Assembly (NCBI GenBank): GCA_022562395.1
Contig: JADFPI010000001.1
Coordinates: forward strand, 1,456 to 65,455
DNA length: 64,000 bases
Direction of reading: 5' to 3'
Origin: Patescibacteria group bacterium
GTDB lineage: Bacteria > Patescibacteriota > Microgenomatia > UBA8517
Made by a program: the position numbers and the translations under genes. This document shows, piece by piece, positions 2,983 to 64,000 of the stretch (position 1 is its first letter; each line of letters begins with the position of its first letter). The notes under the pieces are model-generated. The model worked only from the letters and a program-made list of their open reading frames with translations, ran no database searches and had not been told where the DNA came from.

Positions 2983-3133
2983 ATGTATATTTTAGCACGG
3001 AAAGTAAAGCTCGACCGTGGACGAATCTGACAGAAAAATCGAGGGATAATTTACAAGGCAATTGGCCGATTTTTGTGTCTAACTAATATTTAGGCCTTTT
3101 AATGGCAATGATTGTTATCTGCATCTTTCTCTG

Positions 3134-60708: not shown

Positions 60709-60736
60709 TTGACAATCTTTATCAGAACATTATAAT
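60709..60736 (+). promoter_or_regulatory. Consensus promoter TTGACA-N16-TATAAT for the relB/yafQ-like pair (leaderless; ATG 9 nt after the -10)
   Basis: -35 at 60709-60714 and -10 at 60731-60736. Confidence 0.65.
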
Positions 60737-60745
60737 TATATTGCT

Positions 60746-61033
60746 ATGCAGAAGGTGATTGTACAGGTTCCAATGACTAAAAAATTAAGAGACGCCGCAA
60801 CTCGCGCTGCGAAAGATTCAGGTTTCTCGTCTTTACAGGAAGTAATTCGTTTGTTTACCACCAAGCTTGCCAAGAAGCAGGTTTCGATTGATATTTCTGG
60901 AGTGGAATATTTGACTCCCCAGGAAGATGCTATTTTGGAAAAGAGGTATAAAGAATTTCTAGCCGAGAAGAAGAAGGGTAAAACTTATAAAGCAACCTCT
61001 GCCAAGGAGATGATAAGGCAACTGACTTCTTAA
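60746..61033 (+). CDS. RelB/DinJ-like antitoxin (putative)
   Basis: 95-aa basic protein immediately upstream of a RelE/YafQ-family toxin; assigned by gene context. Confidence 0.5.
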   Translation: MQKVIVQVPMTKKLRDAATRAAKDSGFSSLQEVIRLFTTKLAKKQVSIDISGVEYLTPQEDAILEKRYKEFLAEKKKGKTYKATSAKEMIRQLTS

Positions 61034-61036
61034 TAG

Positions 61037-61312
61037 ATGGCCACAATCGAATACGACAGGAGGTTTAAGAAGCACTTCAAAACAAGAATTTTTCTCAATA
61101 GAAAACTTGCAAAAAGATATGAAGAACGACTGGATTTATTTTTGAAAGATAGACGTAATTCCATATTAAATGACCATAAGCTTGTTGGGAGGCTAGAAGG
61201 CACGAAAGCTTTTAATATTACCGGGGATATTAGAGTTATTTATGTCGAAGCATGAGACACAAGCTATGCTTATGTCGAAGTAGACAAGAACCACTTTATT
61301 TTTCTAGATATC
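61037..61312 (+). pseudogene. RelE/YafQ-family toxin interrupted by an in-frame 30-bp tandem duplication carrying a TGA stop (track ORF 61037..61255)
   Basis: HKLVGRLEGTKAFNITGDIRVIYVEA then stop. Removing 61251-61280 restores ...VIYVEVDKNHFIFLDIGTHPQIYGM, the expected RelE/YafQ C-terminus. The duplicated ttatgtcgaag is visible at 61240-61250 and 61270-61280. Confidence 0.6.
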
Positions 61313-61396
61313 GGCACCCATCCTCAAATTTATGGTATGTAGCTAGGGGGGAATTTCGCTTCAATTTAAACACAGGGTTTGGTAAAATACAACAAG

Positions 61397-61467
61397 CGGG
61401 GAGTAGTTTAGTGGTAGAATGTGCGCATGGGGTGCGTGCGGCCCGAGTTCGATTCTCGGCTCCCCGA
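61397..61467 (+). tRNA. tRNA-Pro (anticodon GGG)
   Basis: Manual fold gives acceptor CGGGGAG/CTCCCCG, anticodon loop AT-GGG-GT with U33 and G37, T-arm CCGAG-TTCGATT-CTCGG, discriminator A and no encoded CCA. The D-stem is weak (GU pairs). Confidence 0.65.
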
Positions 61468-61489
61468 CACTATAGGATTTTGATATTCC

Positions 61490-61773
61490 AGTTGTTGACT
61501 TAGGGTTATCTTTGATGACAATAATGATTTCACTTTGTAAATTTGCTACTGAATTAATTCAGTAGTTAAGACAACTGCATCAAGCCGAATTCCCCCCGCC
61601 AGCAACTGCGTAGCTTTGAGCGGGGGGCGGGTGAGGCGTAGTCTCCGATAAAATCGGGGTAGCAATGCGGCGTCTAGAAGCCTCTCGGCAAAGCCGAGTT
61701 AATCCTTCAGGATATTGAAGAAGTCCCGAGCCTCTGTGCTCGGGGAGGCTTCACTTCAGTAGTTAAAATGGCC
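61490..61773 (+). repeat. Degenerate third AbrB-like cassette on the plus strand: promoter, palindrome (61545-61564), a ~190-bp hairpin-rich insert (61565-61754), then ttcagtagttaaaATGGCCAGCCCCGACTAA (5-codon remnant)
   Basis: Matches the 5' leader and first codons of copies 1 and 2. The ttcagtagttaa on each side of the insert looks like a 12-bp duplication. Confidence 0.6.
61565..61754. mobile_element. ~190-bp hairpin-rich insertion (MITE-like or structured ncRNA candidate)
   Basis: Stems CCCCCCGC/GCGGGGGG, CCGAT-aaa-ATCGG, CTCGGC-aaa-GCCGAG, CTTCA-ggatat-TGAAG and CCCGAGC-ctctgt-GCTCGGG. Flanked by a ttcagtagttaa direct repeat. No ORF. Confidence 0.4.
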
Positions 61774-62567: not shown

Positions 62568-63077
62568 TTATTTTTTAGCTTTGTTTTTATACCACTTTTG
62601 TAAATCTTTTATAGCTTCGTTTGCGCTTTTGAAGGACATTTTAGGGACTTTGTCTATGGGAAACCAGACCAGCTCACTTACGTCATCTTCGGCCTTCATT
62701 TCCCCGCCCTTTATTTCTGCCAAATAGTAGAGATTAAGAGTTTCATAGACTATTCCTTCATACTCGTAGCTATCCGTGTAAATTCCAAGTAAATTGCCAA
62801 GCTTTATGTCAAGCCCGGTTTCTTCTTTTGTTTCTCTCGCAGCAGCGGCTGGAGGGGATTCTCCTTCATTTAAAAATCCCCCTATTGAGTCCCACCTGCC
62901 TTTTTTGGGCTCTCTGGCTCTTTTGGCAATAAGCACTTTGCCACCTTTTATGAGTAAGACTGATACTCCGGGATAAGAACGCGCAAAAACCTTTCTTTTA
63001 CAAGATAAGCATTGATAACTCTCTCCGCTGTAGGAAAGCTTTCCCTTGCAATAAGGACAGTATTTGTACGCTAGCAT
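62568..63077 (-). CDS. NUDIX hydrolase with an N-terminal C4 zinc ribbon
   Basis: Nudix box GGFLNEGESPPAAAARETKEETGL. CPYC...CLSC ribbon. Start moved to the internal ATG (MLAYKYCPYC) so as not to overlap recA; the track ORF ends at 63140. Confidence 0.7.
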   Translation of the reverse strand: MLAYKYCPYCKGKLSYSGESYQCLSCKRKVFARSYPGVSVLLIKGGKVLIAKRAREPKKGRWDSIGGFLNEGESPPAAAARETKEETGLDIKLGNLLGIYTDSYEYEGIVYETLNLYYLAEIKGGEMKAEDDVSELVWFPIDKVPKMSFKSANEAIKDLQKWYKNKAKK

Positions 63078-63133
63078 TATCGGGATAGATGTATCTTGTA
63101 TTTTACCAGAGAGTGTGATACAAATTTGGCGAG

Positions 63134-64000
63134 ATGGCAAGAAAGAAGAAAAAGGAAGTTAAGAAACCAGAGCCTCAAAAAGATGCATCAGCTAAACTTC
63201 AAGCAATAAAACTTGCCATGGAACAGATTGAAAAGCAGTACGGCAAGGGTTCTATTATGCGCCTTGGAGCAAAAACTGACGGGAGACTTAAGATTAGCGT
63301 TATCCCCACTGGGTCAATTGCGCTTGATTTGGCTTTGGGGGTTGGGGGATTGCCTCGAGGGCGTATTGTTGAAATTTATGGGCCGGAAGCCTCGGGAAAG
63401 ACTACTCTGGCGCTGTCAGTTATCGCCGAGGCTCAAAAAGCTGGGGGGCAAGCAGCCTTTGTAGATGCTGAGCACGCAGTTGACGCTACTTGGGCAGAGA
63501 TTGTTGGAGTTAATTTAGACGACCTTCTTTTATCTCAACCTGACACAGGAGAGCAAGCTTTGGAGATAACGGAGACGCTGATTCGTTCCGGTGCACTAGA
63601 TGTAATTGTTGTCGACTCGGTTGCGGCACTTGTCCCACGGGCTGAGCTTGAAGGTGAAATGGGAGATGCGGTTATGGGAATGCAGGCGAGGCTTATGAGT
63701 CAGGCATTGAGAAAGTTAACTGGTGCAATTTCAAAGTCTAGGACTATTCTGGTATTTACTAATCAAATAAGGATGAAAATTGGAGTGATGTTTGGAAATC
63801 CGGAAACTACTTCGGGAGGACTGGCTCTTAAGTTTTATTCTTCGGTCAGGCTTGATGTCAGGCGAATAGAGATATTAAAAGATGGAGAGGTCGCAATCGG
63901 CTCAAGACACAGAGTGCGAGTTGTTAAGAATAAGGTTGCGCCTCCTTTGAGGGTTGCGGAGCTTGACATTATGGCCGATGAGGGAATTTCAAAGGCAGGG
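63134..64000 (+). CDS. recA: recombinase RecA, 5' partial (runs off window end)
   Basis: Manual translation gives [45 protein letters not shown]...[17 protein letters not shown]...[19 protein letters not shown]. Absent from the ORF track because there is no stop within the window. Confidence 0.9.

What the first reader, a model, noticed from the sequence alone, without database searches (positions are those of the whole stretch)
60709..61312. RelB/YafQ-like toxin-antitoxin pair with the toxin knocked out by a 30-bp in-frame tandem duplication that introduces TGA
Deleting 61251-61280 yields a full-length RelE/YafQ C-terminus (VIYVEVDKNHFIFLDIGTHPQIYGM). The duplicated unit ttatgtcgaag is evident on both sides. 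An in-frame insertion carrying a stop is a tidy inactivation; the antitoxin and promoter remain intact.
Basis: seen in the sequence. Interest (0 to 1): 0.5.

Follow-up and report, generated by a model that had tools for sequence, protein, structure and literature searches.

The report
Toxin gene broken by templated insertion
A small toxin-antitoxin gene pair in an uncultured Patescibacteria bacterium has its toxin gene switched off by a real 30-base insertion carrying a stop codon; this is an ordinary kind of gene decay, with the twist that the inserted bases were copied from an unrelated DNA sequence rather than duplicated locally.

Summary
Window 60746-61033 encodes a DinJ-like antitoxin. 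Window 61037-61255 encodes the first 72 codons of a YafQ/RelE-family toxin and ends at an in-frame TGA. Removing 30 bases recreates, base for base, the intact 91-codon allele seen in six metagenome contigs of the same species. The insertion allele, always with TGA, occurs in eight further assemblies, so it is not an assembly artefact. All 48 homologues lack the insert, so it is derived. The truncated product lacks strand beta4 and the invariant G-T-H...Y motif, which aligns with E. coli YafQ H87 and F91. It should therefore be inactive.

The "30-bp tandem duplication" reading is wrong. Only 11 bases (TTATGTCGAAG) are duplicated. The other 19 have no local source. Together with flanking bases they form a 34-base exact match to the cca-recJ intergenic region of another Microgenomates-like species. 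This points to a microhomology-templated insertion (template switch or SPDIR-like). No donor was found in the window's own genome.

Verdict: a new member of a known kind (dinJ-yafQ module with a null toxin allele segregating in nature). Interest is low to moderate.

The parts
60709..60736 (+). Sigma-70-type promoter of the operon: TTGACA, 16 nt, TATAAT. The antitoxin ATG follows 9 nt after the -10 hexamer, so the mRNA is probably leaderless.
   Evidence: The consensus scan gives 12 of 12 matches. The sequence is identical in L001-L011. The hexamers, the spacing and the ATG distance are kept in the diverged L012/L013 and in the orthologous loci L016/L017.
60746..61033 (+). DinJ-like (ribbon-helix-helix type) antitoxin gene, 95 aa, intact.
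   Evidence: ORF. It has 50 homologues of 89-106 aa, some of which JGI names 'antitoxin component of RelBE/YafQ-DinJ'. The family profile hits E. coli DinJ 4ML0/4Q2U at E = 0.007-0.008 over nearly full length. The AF2 model has pLDDT 84.6. The top Foldseek hit is V. cholerae DinJ 9lew. There is no Pfam or NCBIfam hit.
61037..61255 (+). Truncated YafQ/RelE-family toxin ORF: 72 codons plus TGA. It starts 3 nt after the antitoxin stop codon.
   Evidence: It scores PF15738 25.0 bits (cut-off 30) and TIGR02385 26.9 bits (cut-off 27.9).
61240..61250 (+). First copy of the 11-nt junction repeat TTATGTCGAAG. This is native coding sequence (codons for Y-V-E).
   Evidence: It is present once in the intact alleles L001-L006. 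The orthologue in another species has TTATGTTGAGG.
61251..61280 (+). The 30-nt insertion: 19 foreign nt (CATGAGACACAAGCTATGC) plus the second copy of the 11-mer. Because of the repeat, its boundaries can equally be drawn anywhere from 61240-61269 to 61251-61280.
   Evidence: It is absent from L001-L006 and from all 48 homologues. Window 61240-61273 is 100% identical to L019 1121-1154 and L022 3139-3172, and the same sequence is in L023.
61253..61255 (+). Premature in-frame TGA stop, codon 73.
   Evidence: It is TGA in all nine insertion-allele assemblies. TGA ends 15 of 56 long ORFs, and ORFs of 1118 and 1248 aa are uninterrupted under table 11.
61256..61342 (+). Untranslated in-frame remnant of the toxin: strand beta4 and the G-T-H-P-Q-I-Y-G-M C-terminus, ending at TAG 61340-61342.
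   Evidence: It carries the invariant G83-T84-H85 and Y89 of the family. It has the highest density of variable positions in the locus, 8 in 62 nt.

Best explanation
This is a chromosomal dinJ-yafQ-type type II toxin-antitoxin operon in an uncultured Patescibacteria (Microgenomates/Woesebacteria-like) bacterium.

How the intact module works. This is inferred from the family and not shown here. A consensus promoter drives a probably leaderless mRNA. The 95-aa DinJ-like antitoxin neutralises the 91-aa YafQ-like ribosome-dependent mRNA endonuclease. It most likely also represses its own promoter.

What this strain carries. The toxin gene has a 30-nt in-frame insertion inside beta-strand 3 that brings a TGA. 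Translation stops after 72 residues. The product lacks strand beta4 and the invariant G-T-H...Y C-terminus, which aligns with E. coli YafQ H87 (the general acid, indispensable for cleavage) and F91. It is therefore a null toxin allele next to an intact antitoxin.

Population status. The allele is real and segregates in natural populations alongside the intact allele.

Origin of the insertion. It is not a local duplication. It was copied from an ectopic template that contains TTATGTCGAAG-CATGAGACACAAGCTATGC-TTAT. Entry used the 11-nt microhomology with the toxin's own Y-V-E codons. Return used the TTAT, plus a looser AGnTAT..TTAT match, just upstream. This fits replication template switching or short-patch double illegitimate recombination. 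Such a template exists in the cca-recJ intergenic region of another Microgenomates-like species. Whether the donor was a copy in the same genome or foreign DNA is unknown.
For: Toxin identity:
- The repaired and natural intact forms pass the PF15738 and TIGR02385 cut-offs.
- The AF2 model of the intact allele has pLDDT 92.8.
- Its best PDB matches are E. coli YafQ 4mmj (TM 0.80, E = 5.6e-7) and V. cholerae YafQ 9lew_B (TM 0.82).

Antitoxin identity:
- Searches support a DinJ-like antitoxin.

Loss of function:
- The insertion lies in strand E65-73.
- The product lacks E76-84 and H85/Y89.
- For E. coli YafQ, the H87A variant gives no mRNA cleavage, and the H87A and F91A variants restore growth (PMC4652777, read).

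TGA is a stop here:
-. The apparent Trp allele P0014 is a table-4 gene-calling artefact, and its DNA has TGA.

Real allele:
- Nine assemblies carry the insertion and six lack it.
- All contigs are 98.3-99.8% identical to the window over several kb.
- All insertion alleles share T61177 and A61190.

Derived state:
- All 48 homologues at 41-98% identity are 55-91 aa (the full-length ones 86-91 aa), and none of the 24 I aligned with the window has the 10-codon insert.

Templated origin:
- A 19-mer seed search returned L019 and L022, where the match extends to 34 nt. The 15 extra bases have a chance probability of about 1e-9 per hit.
- The same 45-nt sequence is in L023.
- There the 15-mer ACAAGCTATGCTTAT is directly repeated 30 nt apart, which explains the 30-nt length of the insertion.
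- An 11-nt chance match between a 45-nt donor and a 1-Mb genome is expected about 17 times.
- SPDIR gives microindels of 3 to about 100 bp at microhomologies, from intra- or extragenomic single strands (bioRxiv 10.1101/2023.11.22.568220).
Against: - No activity, toxicity or expression data exist for either allele.
- The antitoxin assignment rests on marginal statistics (E = 0.007; Foldseek E = 0.096), and no curated family model hits it.
- YafQ H63 aligns with N60 in this protein (S in the consensus of its homologues), so the catalytic set is only partly conserved.
- No donor sequence was found in the 64-kb window. The rest of this genome could not be searched.
- The only known carrier of the donor-like sequence is a different species. 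A relative of that species with 77% RecJ identity lacks it, so the direction of transfer is inferred, not shown.
- The return jump rests on only 4 exact bases if the donor looked like L019.
- Low-level read-through of TGA cannot be excluded.
Confidence: 0.8

Rival explanations
1. The 30-bp insertion is an assembly artefact, which is the refutation proposed by the first reader.
For: Several insertion-allele contigs end close to the locus (L009, L010, L011, L013, L014, L015). This shows assembly trouble nearby.
Against: The same insertion, with the same junctions, is in eight further assemblies from different studies and record-naming schemes (k141_, METAG-scaffold_, Logan). It is linked to specific SNPs at 61177 and 61190. 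It has accumulated its own secondary mutations: a 3-bp deletion in L007 and L009, and GTC>ATT in L011. Contig breaks are expected where two alleles coexist.
Confidence: 0.02
2. It began as a perfect 30-bp tandem duplication. The duplicate then diverged by point mutation, one of which created the TGA.
For: There is an 11-nt perfect repeat at exactly 30-nt spacing. In register, the protein segments TGDIRVIYVE and A*DTSYAYVE share D, Y, V and E (read).
Against: It would need about 11 substitutions in 19 nt, while the adjacent 11 nt and the rest of the locus differ by under 2% between strains. TRF finds no repeat. The 19 nt plus flanks match an unrelated locus exactly over 34 nt, which divergence cannot produce.
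Confidence: 0.03
3. The toxin is not dead. TGA is recoded or read through, giving a 101-aa toxin with a lengthened beta-hairpin, possibly at a low, tolerated dose.
For: The insertion is in frame. All secondary changes downstream of the stop keep the frame: a 3-bp deletion, V>I and G/D. TGA is the leakiest stop codon in bacteria (own knowledge). One database protein (P0014) shows W at this position.
Against: P0014's W comes from translating short contigs with table 4. TGA terminates 15 of 56 long ORFs, and very long ORFs are unbroken under table 11. The read-through form scores below the Pfam cut-off (29.4 vs 30). No homologue tolerates an insert there. The 3' remnant is the most variable stretch of the locus. 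The contrast with the 5' part is only suggestive, at p = 0.03-0.07.
Confidence: 0.05
4. The insertion is a reversible on/off allele. Because it is flanked by 11-nt direct repeats, slippage can delete it precisely, and some 'intact' alleles (for example L005) are revertants.
For: L005 is intact yet carries the insertion haplotype T61177/A61190/G61284. Deletion between short direct repeats is a well-known slippage event (own knowledge). Both alleles occur within one study series, LIUR22.
Against: L005 is equally well explained as the ancestral background on which the insertion arose. No sample shows both states on one haplotype. L011 has mutated the second repeat copy, which would hinder reversion.
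Confidence: 0.08
5. The insert is the footprint of a small mobile element, with the 11-mer as a target-site duplication.
For: It has the form direct repeat, foreign segment, direct repeat. The same sequence sits in a second, unrelated locus. There are short inverted termini, AAGCAT...ATGCTT (read).
Against: In the second locus the repeat and insert partition differently (15 + 15 + 15 rather than 11 + 19 + 11), which no element with fixed ends would give. Only one other locus was found in the metagenome scan, and none in viral contigs, phages or plasmids. Folding is not better than shuffles, with z of -1.25 to -1.5.
Confidence: 0.03

Closest known systems
E. coli DinJ-YafQ type II toxin-antitoxin system (PDB 4ML0, 4Q2U, 4MMJ)
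   Same: The gene order is antitoxin then toxin, with a 3-nt gap. The toxin fold matches (TM 0.80). Equivalents of YafQ H50, D67, H87 and F91 are conserved (H47, D64, H85, Y89). The antitoxin profile's best PDB hit is DinJ.
   Different: Toxin identity is only about 21-23%. YafQ H63 is replaced by N60 here (S in the consensus of its homologues). The antitoxin hits no curated DinJ/RelB model. In this window the toxin is truncated at residue 72, so it cannot work like YafQ.
H. pylori YafQ-family toxins HP0892/HP0894 (PDB 4NRN, 2OTR, 1Z8M, 4LTT)
   Same: They are the best sequence-level PDB matches of the intact allele (E = 0.02-0.8, full length) and strong fold matches. They are also chromosomal or ICE-borne small RNase toxins (PMC7584586, listed).
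   Different: They are distant in sequence and come from a different phylum. No equivalent insertion allele has been described for them, to my knowledge.
[quoted passage not shown] 2016, as cited in bioRxiv 10.1101/2023.11.22.568220)
   Same: A short heterologous segment (19-23 nt, within the 3 to about 100 bp range) is inserted at (extended) microhomologies. The donor sequence is identifiable elsewhere. The outcome is a clustered change that creates a stop codon.
   Different: Here both crossover points fall in the same 11-mer of the recipient, so the result is a pure insertion with a junction repeat rather than a substitution. Replication template switching fits at least as well. The donor has only been seen in another species, and nothing was measured experimentally.
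Degenerate toxin-antitoxin loci with an inactivated toxin and a retained antitoxin (general phenomenon; own knowledge)
   Same: The toxin is lost while the antitoxin and promoter are kept. The toxin gene shows more than one independent truncation in the population (the insertion allele here, and Q87* in L004).
   Different: Here both the functional-looking and null alleles are documented side by side in one species, and the mutational mechanism can be traced.

Membership tests
YafQ/RelE toxin family (PF15738, TIGR02385) | Profile score above the curated cut-off | tested here: not met
   The window's actual 72-aa ORF scores 25.0 bits against a cut-off of 30, and 26.9 against 27.9. The repaired or natural intact allele passes, at 37.5 and 35.1 bits. 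The gene is a member by descent; its product in this strain is a fragment.
YafQ/RelE toxin family (PF15738, TIGR02385) | Microbial-RNase (RelE/YoeB) fold: N-terminal helices packed on a four-stranded sheet | tested here: met
   This applies to the intact allele P0001. The AF2 model has pLDDT 92.8. Foldseek gives E. coli YafQ at TM 0.80 and E = 5.6e-7, with 26 PDB hits at E <= 0.001, all YafQ-, RelE- or YoeB-type toxins (one entry is annotated YoeB/ParE). The truncated product lacks one strand and the C-terminal helix.
YafQ/RelE toxin family (PF15738, TIGR02385) | Catalytic residues equivalent to YafQ H50, H63, D67, H87 and F91 | tested here: inconclusive
   In the intact allele, H47, D64, H85 and Y89 are present and invariant or nearly so in the family, while H63 aligns with N60 (S in the family consensus) (residue roles from PMC4652777). 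In the window allele, H85 and Y89 lie after the stop codon.
YafQ/RelE toxin family (PF15738, TIGR02385) | Ribosome-dependent mRNA cleavage and growth arrest, neutralised by the partner antitoxin | not testable with these tools
   This needs expression and cleavage assays.
DinJ/RelB ribbon-helix-helix antitoxins | Match to a curated DinJ/RelB family model | tested here: not met
   There is no Pfam or NCBIfam hit at E <= 1 other than unrelated sub-threshold families.
DinJ/RelB ribbon-helix-helix antitoxins | Sequence or fold similarity to solved DinJ: an N-terminal strand-helix-helix followed by C-terminal toxin-wrapping helices | tested here: inconclusive
   A 40-sequence profile hits E. coli DinJ at E = 0.007 over residues 7-90. 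The model shows helices at 12-24, 30-42, 58-76 and 86-94 with an extended N-terminus. The top Foldseek hit is V. cholerae DinJ, probability 0.94 but E = 0.096 and TM 0.46.
DinJ/RelB ribbon-helix-helix antitoxins | Encoded immediately upstream of, and co-transcribed with, a RelE/YafQ-type toxin | tested here: met
   There is a 3-nt gap between the genes. The same pairing is seen in the orthologous loci L016 and L017 in a different genomic context. Co-transcription itself is inferred.
   TRF finds no array. Only 11 of the 30 nt are repeated. The other 19 nt match an ectopic locus.
Templated microindel (template switch / SPDIR) | The inserted bases are identical to a sequence elsewhere that also carries the junction microhomology | tested here: met
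   A 34-nt exact match includes the 11-mer, the 19-mer and the TTAT in L019, L022 and L023. The extension beyond the seed has a chance probability of about 1e-9.
Templated microindel (template switch / SPDIR) | The donor was present in the same cell (same genome, or DNA taken up) | not testable with these tools
   The window has no second copy. This species is not in the genome collection scanned.

The most novel reading that the evidence does not exclude
The 30-nt insert was copied from DNA of a different Microgenomates-like species taken up from the environment, that is, an extragenomic SPDIR-type event in a bacterium that lives by scavenging DNA. Because it is bracketed by 11-nt repeats, it can also be lost precisely. 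The toxin gene would then behave as a reversible on/off allele in the population.
Probability: 0.12. Interest if true: 0.5.

Novelty: new member of a known kind. Interest (0 to 1): 0.22.

Why it matters
As a toxin-antitoxin locus it adds little. dinJ-yafQ modules are well understood, and dead toxins beside live antitoxins are common.

Its modest value lies in three points:

1. It is a clean natural example, with both alleles documented in wild populations, of how a toxin gene is lost in a reduced-genome Patescibacteria lineage.
2. The lesion can be traced to a templated, microhomology-mediated insertion. This class of mutation has mostly been characterised in laboratory selections.
3. It is a cautionary case for annotation. 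A gene caller that switched to genetic code 4 on short contigs turned the stop into Trp and hid the pseudogene.

Tried and rejected
- **Local source of the 19 nt.** There is no copy in the window within 3 mismatches on either strand. Nearby inverted 7-mers are at chance level (my estimate is about 0.6 expected), so I dropped a quasi-palindrome template switch.
- **Recoding of TGA.** Rejected on stop-codon usage and unbroken long ORFs.
- **A sense (Trp) version of the insertion allele, P0014.** This is a table-4 translation artefact.
- **Structured RNA or DNA element.** Rfam finds only the tRNA. Folding energies are not better than shuffles.
- **Mobile or viral source.** There are no hits in viral contigs, phages or plasmids.
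- **L020 and L021.** Their 23- and 21-nt matches lie in long ORFs with non-homologous contexts, and the number of hits is about what chance predicts for a 19-mer in a collection of this size. I treated them as chance.
- **Operator-like motif AAGCTATGCTT as a regulon motif in the window.** Not enriched: 3 matches at <= 1 mismatch against 1.6 expected.
- **Finding this species' own recJ upstream region or any intragenomic donor.**
  - The genome-collection scan returned only a distant Doudnabacteria relative.
  - The RecJ cluster look-up gave no locus tags of this MAG.
  - The ENA contig of the donor-like species, L025, comes from a different sample and is rearranged.
  - The question stays unresolved.
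- **ORF 61252-61503 (83 aa), created by the ATG inside the insert.** It runs through the tRNA gene and is spurious.

Full report
**What is in the sequence**

Window 60746-61033 is a 95-codon ORF. Three bases after its stop codon, a second ORF starts at 61037. It runs 72 codons to a TGA at 61253-61255, and the same frame then continues open to TAG at 61340-61342. The 11-mer TTATGTCGAAG occurs at 61240-61250 and again at 61270-61280. These are its only two occurrences in 64 kb, where 0.05 are expected. A perfect consensus promoter (TTGACA, 16 nt, TATAAT) lies at 60709-60736. The antitoxin ATG follows only 9 nt after the -10 hexamer, so the mRNA is probably leaderless. The hexamers, their spacing and the ATG distance are kept in diverged strains (L012, L013) and in the orthologous operon of another species (L016, L017).

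**What the genes are**

*Toxin.*
- The 72-aa product scores below the curated cut-offs of PF15738 YafQ_toxin (25.0 vs 30 bits) and TIGR02385 RelE/StbE (26.9 vs 27.9).
- The version with 30 nt removed passes both, aligned end to end (37.5 and 35.1 bits). A read-through version scores worse, at 29.4 bits.
- An AlphaFold model of the natural intact allele is confident (pLDDT 92.8).
- Its best PDB matches are E. coli YafQ (4mmj, TM 0.80, E = 5.6e-7), V. cholerae YafQ and H. pylori HP0894, followed by RelE/YoeB toxins.

*Antitoxin.*
- It hits no Pfam or NCBIfam family.
- It has 50 homologues of 89-106 aa (most 95-96) in Patescibacteria, Microgenomates and Woesebacteria.
- A profile of 40 of them finds E. 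coli DinJ as best PDB hit, nearly full length, at E = 0.007.
- Its model (pLDDT 84.6) has V. cholerae DinJ as top Foldseek hit, with probability 0.94 but E = 0.096.
- "DinJ-like" is therefore reasonable but only weakly supported. "RelB" is no better supported.

*Organism.* It is an NCBI MAG labelled "Patescibacteria group bacterium". The antitoxin is MCH7729959.1, locus tag IID21_00350, on a 67-kb contig.

**Is the insertion real, and is it derived?**

Exact-protein look-ups returned the same locus from many metagenome assemblies. All are 98.3-99.8% identical to the window over several kb, so they belong to one species.

- Six contigs (L001-L006) lack the 30 nt and encode a 91-aa toxin (86 aa in L004).
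- Their sequence is exactly what one gets by deleting 61251-61280, apart from a G/D polymorphism at codon 73.
- Eight contigs (L007, L009-L015) plus the window carry the insertion, always with TGA.
- These come from several studies and three record-naming schemes.
- All insertion alleles share T61177 and A61190.
- They have picked up their own later changes: a 3-bp deletion in L007 and L009, GTC>ATT in the second repeat copy of L011, and G/A at 61284.
- This excludes an assembly artefact.

All 48 toxin homologues found (41-98% identity) are 55-91 aa, and the full-length ones are 86-91 aa. None of the 24 that I aligned with the window has the 10-codon insert. The insertion is therefore the derived state.

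One database protein, P0014, appeared to show the insert with Trp instead of stop. Its contigs have TGA, and the Trp comes from gene calling with genetic code 4 on short contigs. TGA is a normal stop in this genome. It ends 15 of 56 long ORFs, and ORFs of 1118 and 1248 aa are unbroken under table 11.

**Consequence for the toxin**

In the model, the insertion point (after E71, or equivalently before Y69) lies inside strand beta3, residues 65-73. The truncated product lacks strand beta4 (76-84) and the C-terminal G83-T84-H85...Y89. G83, T84, H85 and Y89 are invariant in the 44-sequence alignment A3, where H85 and Y89 align with E. coli YafQ H87 and F91. For E. coli YafQ, the H87A variant gives no mRNA cleavage at all, and the H87A and F91A variants abolish toxicity (PMC4652777). 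I infer that the window allele is a null toxin; this was not tested.

After the TGA, the in-frame remainder has no ATG, GTG or TTG codon until the final Met codon, so no usable restart exists (read).

Among insertion alleles, the stretch after the stop has collected 3-4 mutational events in 87 nt, against 1 in 216 nt before it. This is only suggestive, at p = 0.03-0.07. Across all contigs the 3' remnant is the most variable stretch of the locus.

A second, independent truncation exists on the intact background: Q87* in L004. This fits recurrent loss of this toxin.

**How the insertion arose**

It is not a 30-bp tandem duplication.
- Tandem Repeats Finder finds nothing.
- Only 11 nt are repeated.
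- The other 19 nt have no relative in the window.

A scan of public metagenome contigs for the 19-mer returned four loci. Two of them, L020 and L021, are 21-23-nt matches inside unrelated long ORFs. That number of hits is about what chance predicts for a 19-mer in a collection of that size.

The other two, L019 and L022, are contigs of one species. A third contig of that species, L023, was found later. All three carry ACAAGCTATGC-TTATGTCGAAG-CATGAGAC-ACAAGCTATGC-TTAT. This includes a 34-nt exact match to window 61240-61273. The 15 bases beyond the seed have a chance probability of about 1e-9.

There the sequence sits in the 80-nt divergent intergenic region between a cca-like gene and recJ of a Woesebacteria-like bacterium. 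The 15-mer ACAAGCTATGCTTAT is directly repeated at 30-nt spacing. A relative with 77% RecJ identity has an unrelated intergenic region.

The simplest account is as follows.
1. A nascent strand ending in the toxin's native ...TTATGTCGAAG paired with the same 11-mer in such an ectopic template.
2. It copied CATGAGACACAAGCTATGCTTAT.
3. It then re-paired through TTAT, plus a looser AGnTAT..TTAT match, just upstream in the toxin gene.
4. It re-copied GTCGAAG.

This gives exactly the observed sequence, and it explains the 30-nt length as the spacing of the donor's own repeat.

An 11-nt chance match between a 45-nt donor and a 1-Mb genome is expected about 17 times, so no special targeting is needed. 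The event resembles replication template switching or short-patch double illegitimate recombination. The latter makes 3 to about 100 bp microindels from intra- or extragenomic single strands at microhomologies (bioRxiv 10.1101/2023.11.22.568220).

What is not shown:
- that a donor existed in the same cell;
- the direction of transfer;
- whether the donor was intragenomic.

No copy was found in viral contigs, phages or plasmids. The segment has no notable fold and no Rfam match.

**Rivals**

| Rival | Status |
|---|---|
| Assembly artefact | Excluded by the independent assemblies and linked SNPs |
| Diverged tandem duplication | Excluded by the 34-nt ectopic match |
| TGA read-through or recoding | Unlikely, though a trace of read-through cannot be excluded |
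| Mobile element with target-site duplication | Does not fit: the two loci partition repeat and insert differently (11+19+11 vs 15+15+15) |
| Reversible allele | Stays open as a minority view |

On the last rival, the 11-nt repeats could mediate precise loss, and L005 is intact on the insertion haplotype. L005 is equally well explained as the ancestral background.

**Comparison and verdict**

The locus works like, and by descent belongs to, the dinJ-yafQ class of type II toxin-antitoxin modules. The toxin product of this particular strain fails the family cut-offs because it is a fragment. Orthologous pairs sit in a different genomic context in another species, next to the rplC operon (L016, L017). 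This is as expected for mobile TA modules.

A dead toxin beside a live antitoxin is a common outcome. The traceable, templated origin of the lesion and the coexistence of both alleles in nature are neat but not surprising.

- Novelty: new member of a known kind.
- Interest: about 0.2.

Noticed in passing
L019 1110-1154; L022 3128-3172; L023 69-113: The cca-recJ divergent intergenic region of a Woesebacteria-like species holds two copies of ACAAGCTATGCTTAT 30 nt apart. Each contains the small dyad AAGC-TAT-GCTT, so they may be operator-like sites. This is the only other known home of the sequence inserted in the toxin gene.
   Followed up: partly
L004 2709-2969 (window equivalent 61324-61330): A strain with the uninterrupted toxin allele has three clustered base changes. 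One turns Gln87 into TAA, giving an 86-aa toxin without the last five residues, including the Tyr equivalent to YafQ F91. This is a second, independent truncation of the same gene.
   Followed up: partly
L014 490-690 and L015 340-540 (protein P0014): The public gene call for these short contigs translates the premature TGA as Trp (genetic code 4) and starts at an internal TTG. This hides the pseudogene and creates a fictitious 66-aa protein.
   Followed up: yes
window 61592-61627; L010 around 2990-3030: A GC-rich inverted repeat (CCCCCCGC, 20-nt loop, GCGGGGGG) lies downstream of tRNA-Pro. In L010 the loop is present in the opposite orientation. This is either a real hairpin-loop inversion polymorphism or an assembly ambiguity.
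   Followed up: no
window 61469 onward; L009 3335-3395: Contig L009 diverges completely from all other strains immediately after the 3' end of tRNA-Pro(GGG) (61397-61468). This suggests a strain-variable region or an integration site at the tRNA.
   Followed up: no
L014 1-195: The first third of the antitoxin gene and everything upstream is replaced by unrelated, more GC-rich sequence. This is either a chimeric assembly or a rearrangement that removes the antitoxin N-terminus and promoter.
   Followed up: no
window 60746-61033 (antitoxin) in L011, L012, L013, L014: Insertion-allele contigs that were retrieved independently of the antitoxin sequence carry non-synonymous antitoxin changes: T11S in L012 and L013, A83V in L011, A83S in L014. 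The intact-toxin contigs show none, but they were retrieved by exact antitoxin identity, so the comparison is biased.
   Followed up: partly
window about 62568-63158; L001-L007 NUDIX gene calls: The NUDIX hydrolase gene downstream is called as 122 aa in some strains (L001, L005, L006) and 169 aa in others (L002-L004, L007). This may be another polymorphic truncation in the neighbourhood.
   Followed up: no
L016 2737-3276; L017 1558-2124: The orthologous antitoxin-toxin pair (toxin 76% identical) of another species sits next to the rplC-rplD-rplW-rplB ribosomal protein operon rather than between pepF and tRNA-Pro. The module has therefore moved between genomic contexts. Its promoter keeps TTGACA, 16 nt, TATAAT and the ATG 9 nt downstream.
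   Followed up: partly
L025 3001-4146: In one ENA contig of the donor-like species, recJ is called as only 381 aa (DHHA1 and OB domains) directly after a glutamate dehydrogenase gene. The recJ 5' part, the 45-nt motif and the cca-like gene are absent there. This is either a rearrangement or a chimeric contig.
   Followed up: no
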